This document shows positions 8,767-11,599 of a stretch of 12,628 nucleotides of DNA, one piece after another. A program made the translations under genes and the position numbers. The notes under the pieces are model-generated. The model made no database searches. It had not been told where the DNA came from and worked only from the letters and a program-made list of their open reading frames with translations. The number at the start of each line of letters is the position of its first letter. Position 1 is the stretch's first letter. The stretch is from a virus (lineage: Duplodnaviria > Heunggongvirae > Uroviricota > Caudoviricetes): the IMG/VR virus record IMGVR_UViG_2690316231_000010, positions 1-12,628 of that record, one strand, 5' to 3'.

Positions 8767-9063
8767 ATGAAAACCTTACGTTGCATGGCCTACCAGCAGA
8801 ACGGCGTTTACGTAGCTGCATGTTTAGACCTGTCATTGGCAGCGCAAGCAGATACTATGAAAGAAGCTGTAAACAAACTGGATGAGCAGATTAAAGATTT
8901 TTTCACTGAAGCGCTATCAGAGCCGGAATATGCAAAACAACTACTAAGTCGGAAAGCACCTTTATCTATGTGGCTTAAGTATTGGGTAATTGCATTTCAG
9001 GTTTTTGTCAGAAAACGAGGTGAAGCAAAACTCTTTGCTGAGCCTTGTGATGCTCATGCTTAG
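8767..9063 (+). CDS. HicB-like (DUF1902/UPF0150-type antitoxin fold) protein, 98 aa, in the rexA slot
   Basis: N-terminal motif NGVYVAACLDLSLAAQADTMKEAVNKLDEQI fits the GxYVAxxPDLPGxxxQGDTxEEAxxNxxEAI signature of HicB N-domains; strong SD gaggaga; hydrophobic C-terminal tail with no obvious RHH/HTH. Motif-based call, not a search. Confidence 0.5.
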   Translation: MKTLRCMAYQQNGVYVAACLDLSLAAQADTMKEAVNKLDEQIKDFFTEALSEPEYAKQLLSRKAPLSMWLKYWVIAFQVFVRKRGEAKLFAEPCDAHA

Positions 9064-9074
9064 GGTTACATTAC

Positions 9075-9359
9075 ATGTTCTTGAAAAAGCTTACTCCTTT
9101 GAAATACGACGAGGTAATCAGGGGACTTAAGAAAATGGGGTTTGAAATGAAACCTAAAACAGGAACCTCTCACGAACAGTGGGTTCTCAAGAACAGTAAA
9201 GGAAAATGGGTGGTTACAGTTGATAAGCATCACGCCCCATTCTCCAGAGATTTAATAAAATCCATGGCTAAGCAAGCTGGACTGAAAGCTCGTCACTTTC
9301 ATGCGTTATGCAGAGGTGACGCAACGCTTGAGGATATAGGATTCCAAATCATTAGCTAA
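9075..9359 (+). CDS. HicA/YcfA-like toxin-family protein, 94 aa, in the rexB slot
   Basis: Motif VIRGLKKMGFEMKPKTGTSHEQWVLKNSKGKWVVTVDKHHAPFSRDLIKSMAKQAGL fits the HicA signature (GF...GSH...vtv..H...l..i.kqaGL); begins 11 bp after the upstream ORF; followed by a strong terminator. Confidence 0.55.
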   Translation: MFLKKLTPLKYDEVIRGLKKMGFEMKPKTGTSHEQWVLKNSKGKWVVTVDKHHAPFSRDLIKSMAKQAGLKARHFHALCRGDATLEDIGFQIIS

Positions 9360-9791: not shown

Positions 9792-10114
9792 ATGTCCAGA
9801 AAAACAGAATTTAAAGGCACCGCAGCTTCTCGCCGTAGAGCTCGTCGCGCAAATCTGCAAAGTCAGAAGGCGATCAGCTCCGACAAGCTACACAGGCCAA
9901 CCCCTTCACGAGTGGTCTTGCAATGCAAGCGCAAACCAGCAATGAGAGCAGAAGTAATAACACTGACAACGCTGACCAGAAAATATGAAGGCTCAACTTG
10001 TCTTCCAAACGTAGCTCTTTACGCGGCAGGCTACCGGAAATCCAAACAACTGACAGCAAGATGACTTGTGTTGGTCGCCAGAAAATGAAATTAGGCAGCA
10101 AACCACTTATTTGA
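9792..10114 (+). pseudogene. N: N antiterminator homologue with an apparent -1 frameshift
   Basis: Start MSRKTEFKGTAASRRRARRANLQ (arginine-rich motif, SD gggagga) is in one frame and ends at the stop at 10062-10064; the conserved N C-terminus TCVGRQKMKLGSKPLI* (lambda ...TCSGRQKIKGKSIPLI) is in the +2 frame ending 10114. The span is 323 nt, one short of 324 (107 codons plus stop). Confidence 0.55.
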
Positions 10115-10122
10115 GGTGAGAT

Positions 10123-10209
10123 ATGGAAGAAGAATTTGAAGAGTTCGAAGATCATCCTCAGGATGTGATGGAACAATACCAGGACTATCCGTATGACTAC
10201 GACTATTGA
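10123..10209 (+). CDS. Possible 28-aa acidic peptide (MEEEFEEFEDHPQDVMEQYQDYPYDYDY)
   Basis: Strong SD gaggtga 4 nt upstream of the ATG, 8 nt after the N stop; overlaps the ral remnant start; could be a chance ORF. Confidence 0.25.
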   Translation: MEEEFEEFEDHPQDVMEQYQDYPYDYDY

Positions 10210-10290
10210 TAAGAATCAATGGTGTAGACAATACGAACGACGACAATGATTGCCAGAGAACTTGGTAAACAGAACTACAAGGCTGCCTGA
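10193..10290 (+). pseudogene. ral: ral remnant: N-terminal MTTTIDKNQWC and C-terminal ...IRTTTMIARELGKQNYKAA joined out of frame (internal ~100-bp deletion)
   Basis: Both ends resemble lambda Ral (66 aa) as I recall it, but only 98 bp remain and the halves are in different frames, with a stop at 10247-10249. Confidence 0.5.
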
Positions 10291-10294
10291 TGGT

Positions 10295-10319
10295 GGCCTT
10301 TATTTTTGTCCGTAAATAA
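10295..10319 (+). repeat. Direct repeat copy 1 (ggcctttatttttg-N4-taaataa), 5' of the 149-aa gene
   Basis: ggcctttatttttgtccgtaaataa, matched by copy 2 at 10816-10839 (ggcctttatttttggcataaataa); includes a terminator-like T-run and a possible -35 (ttgtcc) for the downstream gene. Confidence 0.6.
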
Positions 10320-10348
10320 TTTCATGCTTATTACAATCAAGGTGATAT

Positions 10349-10798
10349 ATGGAAGAACAAGCAAACAAGATTCTCGTAGAACTACTGCAAAAAGCCAGTA
10401 ATGGAATAGACGCGGCTGTTTCATTTAGCCAGGCACAGATTCCTGATGTTGTTCATCAGTTGCTGCTATGGAATATGGTTGACAGTCTGATTAAAACATT
10501 AGTGGCCATTCTAACAATCCCACTGGTTTTCTGGTTTATGAAGAAGCAGTGCCAAAGAGTTGAGACAGGTAAAATCGGTGATGAAGGATATTCATGGGAG
10601 AAAGGAAATCCCAAATACAGGCCGACAATGGTTTGGGATAGCAAAGGTGATATTAATCTTCTTATCATGCCATTGGTTGGAGTTTTGACTCTGTGGGGGA
10701 TTTTTATTATTGGTGTAGTAACCAATATGACTTGGTTAAAAATTTGGCTGGCCCCAAAGCTTTACCTTATCGAATATGCAGCATCATTGGTTAGGTAA
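10349..10798 (+). CDS. Hypothetical membrane protein, 149 aa, two predicted TM helices; moron-like insertion between ral and ea10
   Basis: SD aaggtga; hydrophobic segments LIKTLVAILTIPLVFWFM and INLLIMPLVGVLTLWGIFIIGVV; flanked by direct repeats and followed by its own terminator; lambda has no gene in this ral-ea10 interval. Confidence 0.6.
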   Translation: MEEQANKILVELLQKASNGIDAAVSFSQAQIPDVVHQLLLWNMVDSLIKTLVAILTIPLVFWFMKKQCQRVETGKIGDEGYSWEKGNPKYRPTMVWDSKGDINLLIMPLVGVLTLWGIFIIGVVTNMTWLKIWLAPKLYLIEYAASLVR

Positions 10799-10802
10799 TT
10801 TC

Positions 10803-10828
10803 AGGCCGCATAGTCGGCCTTTATTTTT
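10803..10828 (+). terminator. Rho-independent terminator after the 149-aa gene (overlaps direct repeat copy 2 at 10816-10839)
   Basis: aggccgcatagtcggcctttattttt: 6-bp stem (aggccg/cggcct), 6-nt loop, T-run. Confidence 0.65.
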
Positions 10829-10947
10829 GGCATAAATAACAGAATAAACACTGCACTGTGTATTCATTCCAACGAGTGAATACACGGAGCAATGTCGCTC
10901 GTAACTAAACAGGAGCCGACTTGTTCTGATTATTGGAAATCTTCTTT

Positions 10948-10976
10948 GCCCTCCAGTGTGAGGGCGATTTTTTATC
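10948..10976 (+). terminator. Rho-independent terminator upstream of ea10 (possibly tL1-equivalent)
   Basis: gccctccagtgtgagggcgattttttatc: stem gccctc/gagggc, loop cagtgt, T-run. Confidence 0.55.
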
Positions 10977-10993
10977 TGTGAGGATATGAACAG

Positions 10994-11362
10994 ATGCCAA
11001 ACATCAAAAAATACATCATTGATTACGACTGGAAAGCATCAATAGAAATTGAAATCGACCATGACGTAATGACAGAGGAAAAACTTCACCAGATTAATAA
11101 TTTCTGGTCAGACTCTGAATACCGACTCAATAAACACGGCTCTTTATTAAATGCTGTATTAATCATGCTGGCGCAACATGCTCTGCTTATAGCAATTTCG
11201 AAAGACTTAAATGCATATGGTGTTGTTTGTGAGTTCGACTGGGATGATGGAAATGGTCAGGAAGGATGGCCTCCAATGGATGGTAGTGAAGGAATAAGAA
11301 TTACCGATATCGATACATCAGGAATATTTGATTCAGATGATATGACTATCAAGGCCGCCTGA
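10994..11362 (+). CDS. ea10: Ea10-like protein (lambda ea10 position), 122 aa
   Basis: 369-bp ORF exactly 72 bp upstream of cIII, matching the lambda ea10-cIII spacing and length as I recall them; acidic C-terminal half. Confidence 0.7.
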   Translation: MPNIKKYIIDYDWKASIEIEIDHDVMTEEKLHQINNFWSDSEYRLNKHGSLLNAVLIMLAQHALLIAISKDLNAYGVVCEFDWDDGNGQEGWPPMDGSEGIRITDIDTSGIFDSDDMTIKAA

Positions 11363-11434
11363 GTGCGGTTTTACCGCATACCAATAACGCTTCACTCGAG
11401 GCGTTTTTCGTTATGTATAAATAAGGAGCACACC

Positions 11435-11599
11435 ATGCAATATGCCATTGCAGGGTGGCCTGTTGCTGGCTGCCCTTCCGAATCTTTACTTGAACGAATC
11501 ACCCGTAAATTACGTGACGGATGGAAACGCCTTATCGATATACTTAATCAGCCAGGAGTCCCAAAGAATGGATCAAACACTTATGGCTATCCAGACTAA
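11435..11599 (+). CDS. cIII: cIII (lambda-type protease-inhibitor regulator), 54 aa
   Basis: [54 protein letters not shown] matches lambda cIII; SD aaggag. The ORF-track 78-aa version is an upstream extension. Confidence 0.9.
   Translation: MQYAIAGWPVAGCPSESLLERITRKLRDGWKRLIDILNQPGVPKNGSNTYGYPD

What the first reader, a model, noticed from the sequence alone, without database searches (positions are those of the whole stretch)
10291..10845. Inserted 149-aa two-TM membrane-protein gene flanked by ~25-bp direct repeats between the ral remnant and ea10
The lambda-collinear block ea10-cIII-kil-gam-bet places ral about 180 bp upstream of ea10, but here ~700 bp separate them. The extra DNA is one gene for a 149-aa protein with two hydrophobic helices, bracketed by near-identical copies of ggcctttatttttg-N3/4-taaataa (10295-10319 and 10816-10839). 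Copy 2 forms an intrinsic terminator. A promoter-like element (ttgtcc, 17 bp, tattac at 10306-10334) and SD aaggtga precede the gene. This is the layout of a phage moron, and its position next to N is where lambdoid phages often carry superinfection-exclusion genes such as sieB.
Basis: partly seen in the sequence, partly recalled or inferred. Interest (0 to 1): 0.65.

Follow-up and report, generated by a model that had tools for sequence, protein, structure and literature searches.

The report
Optional phage membrane-protein gene cassette
The extra DNA between ral and ea10 is a real gene from a very large, uncharacterised family of small phage inner-membrane proteins; it comes and goes by recombination at short shared gene-boundary sequences, and nothing links it to SieB or to an independently transcribed "moron".

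Summary
Compared with lambda, 521 bp are added between the ral stop and ea10. They carry a 149-aa two-TM ORF (10349-10798) bracketed by an exact 14-bp repeat, 24/25 when extended.

- Both repeat copies are the descending arm plus T-tract of terminator-like hairpins. They are not target-site duplications.
- A second boundary repeat (SD-ATGGAAGAA) is shared by the orf28 and ORF149 starts.
- Lambda has orf28-ral only, the window and Sf6 have both units, and SPN9CC and Oslo have the ORF149-type gene only. This is cassette shuffling at lambdoid boundary sequences.
- The proposed promoter is 8/12, lacks the -7 T, and is absent from half of the gene's contexts.

The protein is Sf6 gp34 / PHROG 3054. 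The family has more than 2,500 clusters at 50% identity, no Pfam, PDB or PADLOC match, and no similarity to SieB, SieA, Imm, P22 gp17 or P2 LysA. It also occurs in virulent N4-like and phi92-like phages. In about a quarter of prophage loci it lies directly behind the spanin genes, often overlapping them.

It is most likely a lytic-cycle envelope protein, expressed here from pL by N antitermination. Its function is unknown. Interest is modest.

The parts
10114..10134 (+). Gene-start boundary repeat, copy 1: SD plus ATG GAA GAA of the orf28-like ORF (10124-10209)
   Evidence: 19/21 identical to 10340-10360 (D1). Alignment score 32 against a shuffle maximum of 26. In SPN9CC and Oslo the junction between lambda-like upstream DNA and the ORF149-type gene falls inside this motif.
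10193..10290 (+). ral remnant: 98 nt against 201 nt in lambda, from an internal 103-nt deletion; frameshifted, with a stop after 18 codons
   Evidence: ral is full length (201 nt) in Sf6 and in Stx2a phage EH2086, which carry the same cassette. The deletion is therefore independent of the cassette.
10279..10308 (+). Terminator-like hairpin 1 (the ral terminator): 9-bp stem at 10279-10300 followed by a T-tract
   Evidence: RNA fold -15.8 kcal/mol, z = -3.5. The same hairpin follows ral in lambda.
10295..10319 (+). Direct repeat copy 1: GGCCTTTATTTTTG-TCCG-TAAATAA
10306..10334 (+).
   Evidence: 8/12 match with no T at -7, and not reported by the scan. Present only where the ral 3' end precedes the gene: window, EH2086, Sf6 and Gally. 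Absent in SPN9CC, Oslo and PhiR46_1, and only partly present in HF4s.
10340..10360 (+). Gene-start boundary repeat, copy 2: SD plus ATG GAA GAA of ORF149
10349..10798 (+). ORF149: a two-TM inner-membrane protein of the Sf6 gp34 / PHROG 3054 family (RefSeq WP_000392425.1, 'hypothetical protein')
   Evidence: dN/dS 0.12-0.35. AF2 model pLDDT 78.8.
10803..10829 (+). Terminator-like hairpin 2 (the cassette's own): 6-bp stem at 10803-10820 followed by a T-tract
   Evidence: RNA fold -9.7 kcal/mol, z = -1.8. Conserved after the gene in six phage contexts.
10816..10839 (+). Direct repeat copy 2: GGCCTTTATTTTTG-GCA-TAAATAA
10848..10895 (+). Long conserved hairpin inside the region annotated 'bsq4 boundary sequence' in Sf6
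   Evidence: I1. RNA fold -24.9 kcal/mol, z = -6.3. Sf6 annotation. Also present in lambda.
10946..10975 (+). tL2a-like terminator just upstream of ea10
   Evidence: -12.9 kcal/mol, z = -3.2. The homologous Sf6 site is annotated 'tL2A, homology to phage lambda'.
10994..11362 (+). ea10 (DUF2528), the right-hand neighbour

Best explanation
What it is (shown). ORF149 is an optional gene cassette in the early-left (pL) operon of a lambda-like prophage. It encodes a member of a very large, uncharacterised phage family of small inner-membrane proteins (Sf6 gp34 / PHROG 3054).

How it got there (shown by comparison). Its presence or absence results from recombination at short sequences shared by adjacent modules. 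At the 5' end these are an SD-ATG-GAA-GAA gene start. At the 3' end they are a terminator tail, GGCCTTTATTTTTG...TAAATAA. The same junctions fit either an insertion or a deletion between the repeats in lambda's ancestor, so the polarity cannot be decided.

How it is expressed (inferred). There is no credible promoter of its own, and the gene sits behind N and a terminator. It is therefore transcribed from pL by N-antiterminated polymerase, as a delayed-early lytic gene.

What the protein does (inferred, low certainty). It is a helical hairpin. The N-terminal 43 residues and C-terminal 22 residues are strongly conserved and lie on the same side of the membrane. The positive-inside rule places them in the periplasm. 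The TM1-loop-TM2 core is variable and swaps between variants. The family occurs in virulent phages and often lies, translationally coupled, directly behind the spanin genes. I therefore think it acts at the cell envelope during lytic growth, through a conserved host or lysis-machinery partner.

My split for the specific role is:
- lysis timing or spanin/holin-associated role, about 0.3
- Imm-like block of secondary DNA entry, about 0.2
- other membrane takeover or counter-defence, about 0.5

The confidence figure is for the overall reading: a boundary-sequence cassette, a lytic-cycle envelope protein, and not a SieB-like prophage moron.
For: Cassette and boundaries:
- Lambda has a single hybrid copy of the repeat.
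- All three arrangements exist: orf28-ral alone, both units, and the ORF149 type alone.
- The cassette's 3' end is conserved in six contexts, whereas the upstream copy is present only after ral.
- Both repeat pairs are significant.
- Sf6 annotators marked the adjoining DNA as a 'boundary sequence'.
- 750 E. coli genomes carry the empty junction, 270 carry the gene family, and 48 carry this exact layout.

Real gene:
- 517 clusters at 90% identity and 2506 at 50%.
- dN/dS 0.12-0.35.

Operon member:
- No promoter reaches the scan's criteria.
- The gene starts 8 nt after N in HF4s.
- Its start overlaps or abuts the upstream gene in many loci.

Lytic and envelope role:
- Full-length homologues occur in phi92-like, N4-like, Vibrio and Pseudomonas phages.
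- The gene lies directly after holin-endolysin-spanin in Pantoea and C. freundii prophages, and after the lysis cassette plus two intervening genes in an Enterobacteriaceae prophage.
- 6 of 35 species-level loci have an Rz Pfam hit as the immediate upstream gene, and 9 of 35 have an embedded lipoprotein o-spanin there.
- 9 endolysins and 7 holins are found two or three genes upstream.

Topology and conservation:
- The loop holds more K+R than both flanks in 102 of 109 members.
- Conserved termini and a variable core.
- Intragenic mosaic at the DNA level.
Against: - No experiment addresses function.
- One family member (SPN9CC AEW47744.1, 'UDP0047') was among 200 accessory genes screened in ECOR strains. 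It is not among the genes listed there with a lethality or counter-defence phenotype. That screen was not designed for lysis or for exclusion of lambdoid phages.
- The regions behind the lysis cassette and beside N/ral are both general accessory-gene hot spots, so adjacency to spanins may be positional rather than functional. In virulent phages the gene is not near lysis genes.
- Topology rests on a rule of thumb, and short-loop variants are ambiguous.
- A weak promoter cannot be excluded from sequence alone.
Confidence: 0.55

Rival explanations
1. One reading: an autonomous moron (own promoter, gene, terminator) expressed from the prophage. Its membrane protein would exclude superinfecting phages in a SieB-like or SieA-like way.
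For: - The gene is optional between genes that are adjacent in lambda.
- Terminator-like hairpins on both sides would insulate it from pL in a lysogen.
- It sits in hot spots that also hold sieB, hicAB, KilA-N and Bro-N genes.
- It is a small membrane protein with a variable core, as expected for arms-race genes.
Against: - The promoter is 8/12, lacks the -7 T and is absent from half of the contexts.
- The gene abuts or overlaps upstream genes elsewhere.
- No similarity to SieB, SieA or Imm, and no PADLOC hit.
- Full-length homologues exist in virulent phages.
- The highly conserved termini across Vibrio, Pseudomonas and enteric phages point to a conserved target rather than a specific competing phage.
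- The SPN9CC homologue is not among the genes listed with a phenotype in the ECOR screen. The authors say Imm and Cor gave protective effects in that screen.
Confidence: 0.15
2. An Imm-like exclusion factor made during lytic growth. It would be inserted in the inner membrane early after infection or induction and block DNA entry by secondary phages. It would be useful to temperate and virulent phages alike.
For: - Early or middle position in N4-like and phi92-like phages, and a pL position here.
- Small two-TM architecture like T4 Imm.
- Predicted periplasm-facing conserved helices.
Against: - No sequence or profile similarity to Imm.
- A late-operon position coupled to spanins in many prophages is an odd time to begin exclusion.
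- The homologue is not among the genes listed with a phenotype in the ECOR screen.
Confidence: 0.2
3. A membrane-located counter-defence or host-takeover factor. It would neutralise, for example, a membrane-anchored abortive-infection system or a conserved envelope protein.
For: - Silas et al. classed it computationally as an accessory gene in a highly variable accessory region. In the window and Sf6 it lies beside ral.
- Broad distribution with conserved interaction-type helices.
Against: - It is not among the genes listed with a counter-defence phenotype in that screen.
- No homology to any known anti-defence protein; Pfam, NCBIfam and PHROG carry no annotation.
Confidence: 0.1

Closest known systems
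Shigella phage Sf6 gene 34 protein (AAQ12224.1) / PHROG 3054 'unknown function'
   Same: Same family (PHROG 3054 E = 6e-64; all 109 sampled members hit it). Sf6 has the same layout: ral (gene 35), the same upstream repeat and 'promoter' region, gene 34, terminator, bsq4, then tL2A.
   Different: The Sf6 protein is only about 50% identical. It shares the 5' 120-240 nt and the last 65 nt of the gene at 93-97% DNA identity, but its TM-loop-TM core differs. Neither protein has a known function.
Lambdoid module 'boundary sequences' (described for HK620 and Sf6 by Clark, Casjens and colleagues; recalled from my own knowledge, and seen here as the Sf6 'bsq4' feature)
   Same: Short conserved sequences at gene starts and ends are shared by otherwise unrelated modules, and they coincide with mosaic junctions.
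   Different: The two boundary motifs used here are the SD-ATGGAAGAA gene start and the terminator tail GGCCTTTATTTTTG...TAAATAA. They lie next to the annotated bsq4, not inside it.
Phage morons (HK97/HK022 concept: promoter, gene and terminator inserted between conserved genes; own knowledge)
   Same: The gene is optional between genes that are adjacent in relatives. It is followed by a terminator-like hairpin and located in an accessory hot spot.
   Different: No credible or conserved promoter. It is often translationally coupled to the upstream gene. Its composition matches its neighbour ea10 (GC 0.39 against 0.38).
SieB (lambda, P22) superinfection exclusion
   Same: Encoded in the same N-ral neighbourhood of lambdoid phages.
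   Different: No profile similarity (hhalign probability <1%). SieB is on the opposite strand with its own mapped promoter and an internal esc start. The window lacks sieB altogether.
T4 Imm (PF14373)
   Same: A small two-TM phage inner-membrane protein made during lytic growth.
   Different: No Pfam hit and no profile similarity. ORF149 has long conserved extramembrane N- and C-terminal helices that Imm lacks.
Accessory membrane proteins of lysis cassettes, e.g. P2 LysA
   Same: Small multi-TM proteins encoded inside or beside holin-endolysin-spanin cassettes. Many ORF149 homologues sit directly behind the spanins.
   Different: No similarity to P2 LysA. LysA precedes the spanins. In the window and in virulent phages the ORF149 homologue is not near lysis genes.

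Membership tests
Sf6 gp34 / PHROG 3054 family | Significant full-length match to the family profile | tested here: met
   E = 6.3e-64 over residues 1-149. All 109 diverse relatives hit the same PHROG.
Sf6 gp34 / PHROG 3054 family | Shared architecture: conserved N-terminal helix, two TM segments, conserved C-terminal W-x-K-I-x-x-A-P-K-x-Y-L-x-E-Y helix | tested here: met
   Alignments A1, A2 and A5, hydropathy and the AF2 model.
Moron (autonomous promoter-gene-terminator unit) | Present or absent between genes that are adjacent in related phages | tested here: met
   Lambda and 750 E. coli genomes have the empty junction.
Moron (autonomous promoter-gene-terminator unit) | Own promoter upstream of the gene | tested here: not met
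   The best candidate is 8/12 without the -7 T, and the scan reports none. It is not conserved with the gene. The sequence test only argues against a promoter; transcript mapping was not possible.
Moron (autonomous promoter-gene-terminator unit) | Own terminator downstream | tested here: met
   Hairpin plus T-tract at 10803-10829, conserved after the gene in six contexts. This is a prediction only.
Moron (autonomous promoter-gene-terminator unit) | Expression from the repressed prophage | not testable with these tools
   Needs RNA-seq or 5' end mapping in lysogens.
SieB superinfection-exclusion family | Sequence or profile homology to lambda or P22 SieB | tested here: not met
   hhalign probability 0.1-0.3%.
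SieB superinfection-exclusion family | Location between N and ral, transcribed against pL from its own promoter | tested here: not met
   ORF149 lies downstream of ral on the pL strand.
T4 Imm / P22 SieA / P22 gp17 / P2 LysA | Sequence or profile homology | tested here: not met
   No Pfam hit.
Known anti-phage defence proteins (PADLOC-DB v2) | Match to any defence-system model | tested here: not met
   No hit at E <= 1.
Transposable insertion with target-site duplication | Direct repeats created by the insertion and travelling with the element; terminal inverted repeats or a transposase | tested here: not met
   The upstream copy is absent where the gene follows N or sieB or lies near the terminase genes. 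The repeat is part of two hairpin terminators. There is no transposase and there are no terminal IRs.
Lambdoid module boundary-sequence recombination | Short conserved motifs at module ends that coincide with mosaic junctions in several phages | tested here: met
   Junctions fall in SD-ATGGAAGAA (SPN9CC and Oslo versus lambda) and in GGCCTTTATTTTTG (window versus lambda). The Sf6 record annotates the adjoining 'bsq4'.

The most novel reading that the evidence does not exclude
PHROG 3054 / Sf6 gp34 proteins are a previously unrecognised, very widespread class of phage envelope effector. Their conserved N- and C-terminal helices would engage a conserved partner in the inner membrane or periplasm. 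The partner might be the spanin or holin apparatus, to tune lysis, or a host envelope complex used for DNA entry. The swappable TM-loop-TM core would set specificity. The window's gene would then be one allele of a lysis-control or entry-control module shared by temperate and virulent phages of Proteobacteria.
Probability: 0.3. Interest if true: 0.6.

Novelty: new member of a known kind. Interest (0 to 1): 0.3.

Why it matters
The locus itself is ordinary lambdoid mosaicism. It is a clean example in which all three recombinant arrangements and both boundary motifs can be read directly.

The more useful point is the protein family. It has more than 2,500 clusters at 50% identity, spans temperate and virulent phages of Gamma- and Betaproteobacteria, has near-invariant terminal motifs, and has no Pfam model, no structure and no reported function. 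Its recurrent position behind the spanin genes gives a testable lead for a missing component of lysis or envelope control.

Tried and rejected
**Homology and fold searches that found nothing informative**
- Pfam, NCBIfam and PADLOC on the protein and on 109 relatives gave nothing.
- A PDB sequence profile gave nothing.
- Foldseek against PDB gave no hits.
- BFVD returned only uncharacterised phage proteins.
- The afdb50 library was unavailable.

**Specific candidates rejected by hhalign or BLASTP**
- Lambda SieB, P22 SieB, P22 SieA, T4 Imm, P22 gp17 (which occupies the analogous slot in P22) and P2 LysA are all unrelated.

**Names and literature**
- Source-given names for close and distant homologues are only 'hypothetical' or 'TMhelix containing'.
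- Searches for PHROG 3054, Sf6 gp34, boundary sequences and sie proteins found no functional study.
- The only experimental trace is inclusion of the SPN9CC homologue in the Silas et al. accessory-gene screen, where it is not among the genes listed with a phenotype. The published Mol Cell version was not available.

**Other readings rejected**
- The target-site-duplication reading is rejected.
- The distinct-composition argument is rejected: the insert has GC 0.39 and its neighbour ea10 has 0.38.
- Rfam finds no RNA family in the interval.

Full report
**1. Observation**

The window carries a lambda-type early-left operon on the + strand:
- an N-like gene ending at 10064
- an orf28-like ORF (10124-10209)
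- a ral remnant (10193-10290)
- ORF149 (10349-10798)
- ea10 (10994-11362), followed by cIII, kil, gam and bet

ral and ea10 are 703 nt apart, against 182 nt in lambda.

The 14-mer GGCCTTTATTTTTG occurs exactly twice, at 10295 and 10816. Extended to ...N3/4-TAAATAA, the copies align 24/25 with one gap. The score is 33, against a maximum of 26 in 2000 shuffles.

Lambda has one copy. Its left flank equals that of copy 1 and its right flank equals that of copy 2. Relative to lambda, the window therefore has 521 extra bp.

**2. What the repeats are**

Both copies are the descending stem plus T-tract of terminator-like hairpins:
- 10279-10300, -15.8 kcal/mol
- 10803-10820, -9.7 kcal/mol

A third hairpin, the tL2a homologue, lies at 10946-10967.

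I compared eight contexts of the gene.
- The gene's 3' end (TAA, hairpin 2, T-tract, then the lambda ral-ea10 spacer) travels with it in the window, Stx2a phage EH2086, Sf6, Gally, HF4s and SPN9CC.
- The upstream copy is present only when the 3' end of ral precedes the gene: the window, EH2086, Sf6 and Gally.
- HF4s has the gene 8 nt after N.
- Oslo and SPN9CC have it after sieB.
- PhiR46_1 has it upstream of the terminase genes, with unrelated flanks.

In SPN9CC and Oslo the DNA upstream of the gene is the lambda sequence that normally precedes orf28. The junction falls inside AAGGTGATATATGGAAGAA. The window contains this motif twice, at the orf28 start and at the ORF149 start (10114-10134 and 10340-10360, 19/21).

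Three arrangements therefore exist:
- orf28-ral alone (lambda)
- orf28-ral plus ORF149 (window, Sf6)
- the ORF149 type alone (SPN9CC, Oslo)

Each is related to the others by a crossover in one of two short boundary motifs. This is the boundary-sequence mosaicism described for lambdoid phages. The Sf6 record annotates the adjoining DNA as 'bsq4; boundary sequence'. It is not a target-site duplication. Whether the window gained the gene or lambda lost it cannot be decided from the junctions.

Among 5,426 complete E. coli genomes:
- 750 have the empty lambda-type junction
- 270 have the gene family
- 48 have exactly this layout

**3. Expression signals**

TTGTCC-17-TATTAC is present at 10306-10334. 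It matches 8/12, lacks the -7 T, has no extended -10, was not reported by the scan, and is no better than other matches nearby. It is also missing from half of the gene's contexts.

In other genomes the gene's start abuts or overlaps the stop of the upstream gene, at -3 to +8 nt. I infer that here the gene is read from pL through the ral hairpin by N-modified polymerase. That makes it a delayed-early lytic gene.

The GC content of the insert (0.39) equals that of ea10 (0.38).

**4. The protein**

Coding status. ORF149 is a real coding gene.
- It has 517 homologous clusters at 90% identity and 2,506 at 50% identity with E <= 1e-3.
- dN/dS is 0.12-0.35. Constraint is strongest on residues 1-43.

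Database matches.
- All 109 sampled relatives match PHROG 3054, 'unknown function'.
- None has a meaningful Pfam, NCBIfam, PADLOC or PDB match.
- Fold searches are empty or nonspecific.
- Profile comparison finds no relation to lambda or P22 SieB, P22 SieA, T4 Imm, P22 gp17 or P2 LysA.

Architecture.
- The AF2 model (pLDDT 78.8) has a long N-terminal helix running into TM1.
- A poorly defined loop follows, then TM2 and a C-terminal helix.
- Hydropathy gives TM segments at about 44-64 and 104-126.

Conservation.
- The N-terminal 43 and C-terminal 22 residues carry near-invariant motifs: F-x-Q-A-Q-I-P-D-V-x-x-Q-L-L-x-W and W-L-K-I-W-x-A-P-K-L-Y-L-x-E-Y.
- These motifs hold from enteric to Vibrio and Pseudomonas phages.
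- The TM-loop-TM core varies in sequence and length, with loops of 10-69 residues.
- At the DNA level, Sf6 and SPN9CC share the ends of the gene at 93-97% identity but not the middle.

Topology. The loop holds more Lys+Arg than both flanks together in 102 of 109 members. By the positive-inside rule the loop is cytoplasmic and both conserved termini are periplasmic. This is an inference, and short-loop variants are ambiguous.

**5. Context elsewhere**

The family is not confined to temperate phages. Full-length homologues occur in phi92-like myoviruses (gp220), N4-like Schitoviridae of Salmonella, Klebsiella and Vibrio, many other Vibrio phages, and Pseudomonas and Rheinheimera phages. In the four contexts examined (phi92, Salmonella FSL SP-076, a Vibrio N4-like phage and Pseudomonas Lyrsu02) it lies among genes of unknown or nucleotide-metabolism function, away from any annotated lysis gene.

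In prophages of other Enterobacterales and Betaproteobacteria, the most frequent recognisable position is directly behind the lysis cassette.
- Pantoea: holin, lysozyme, i-/o-spanin, then the gene, with its start overlapping the o-spanin stop.
- Citrobacter freundii: the start overlaps a DUF2514 spanin gene.
- An Enterobacteriaceae prophage: after the lysis cassette, a KilA-N gene and a further 79-aa gene.
- In 35 species-representative loci, the immediately upstream gene is a Pfam Rz in 6 and contains an embedded lipoprotein o-spanin in 9.
- The next two upstream genes include 9 endolysins and 7 holins.
- N is among the three nearest upstream genes in three of these loci, immediately upstream in two.

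**6. Best explanation and rivals**

The data show an optional operon-embedded cassette moved by boundary-sequence recombination. It encodes a member of a large unknown membrane-protein family.

From the lack of a conserved promoter, the tight coupling to upstream genes, the presence in virulent phages and the conserved terminal helices, I infer a lytic-cycle envelope function acting through a conserved partner. Within that reading, a lysis-associated role is my leading specific guess (about 0.3), an Imm-like entry block is second (about 0.2), and the rest is open.

The only experimental trace is the SPN9CC homologue, AEW47744.1, with 2 TM by TMHMM. It was one of 200 accessory genes screened in ECOR strains. 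It is not among the genes listed there with a cell-death or counter-defence phenotype. The authors say the Imm and Cor controls gave protective effects in that screen (bioRxiv 10.1101/2023.04.06.535777, Suppl. File 3; PMC12373910).

**7. Verdict**

The locus is ordinary lambdoid mosaicism that involves a known but uncharacterised gene family. Novelty lies only in the family's unexplored function and its recurrent linkage to spanin genes. Interest is 0.3.

Noticed in passing
window 10193-10290: ral is a pseudogene here. An internal 103-nt deletion relative to lambda causes a frameshift and a stop after 18 codons. The window segment 10229-10256 aligns to two places in EH2086, 104 nt apart, on either side of the deleted stretch. 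ral is intact in Sf6 and EH2086, which carry the same ORF149 cassette.
   Followed up: partly
window 10064-10124: Only 59 nt separate N from the orf28-like ORF. Lambda has about 680 nt there, containing sieB on the opposite strand. This prophage therefore lacks sieB entirely.
   Followed up: partly
window 8767-9359: Two ORFs lie between the cI-like repressor and N, the position of rexAB in lambda. In identical RefSeq prophages they are annotated as a DUF1902 protein and a HicA-family toxin. This looks like a HicAB-like toxin-antitoxin module. A hicAB pair also sits near an ORF149 homologue in metagenomic locus L022 (7740-8402).
   Followed up: no
window 10848-10895: A very stable, conserved RNA hairpin (-24.9 kcal/mol, z = -6.3). 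It lies between the cassette terminator and tL2a, inside the stretch annotated 'bsq4 boundary sequence' in Sf6, and is also present in lambda. There is no Rfam family and its function is unknown. It could be a processing or attenuation site.
   Followed up: partly
window 10349-10798 versus L002 (Sf6) and L008 (SPN9CC): The gene is mosaic internally. The first 120-240 nt and the last 65 nt of the gene are 93-97% identical between variants. The TM1-loop-TM2 core is unrelated at the DNA level, and in SPN9CC it is 28 codons shorter. This suggests exchange of the core between alleles.
   Followed up: partly
L015-L017, L020, L028, L038, L039, L041, L042, L047, L048, L054, L057: In many non-E. coli prophages the ORF149 homologue is the gene immediately 3' of the i-/o-spanin pair of the lysis cassette. 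Its start codon often overlaps the spanin stop.
   Followed up: partly
window 11422-11480: Rfam match to the lambda cIII thermoregulator element (RF01804, 88.5 bits), as expected for a lambda-like cIII leader.
   Followed up: no
E. coli genome hits H154, H160, H161 (46-111 kb plasmids): Homologues of the gene, 80-96% identical at the DNA level, also occur on E. coli plasmids. The two of 46-48 kb (80-82% identical) match the gene over the same span and at the same identity as phage PhiR46_1, so they may be related phage-plasmids.
   Followed up: no
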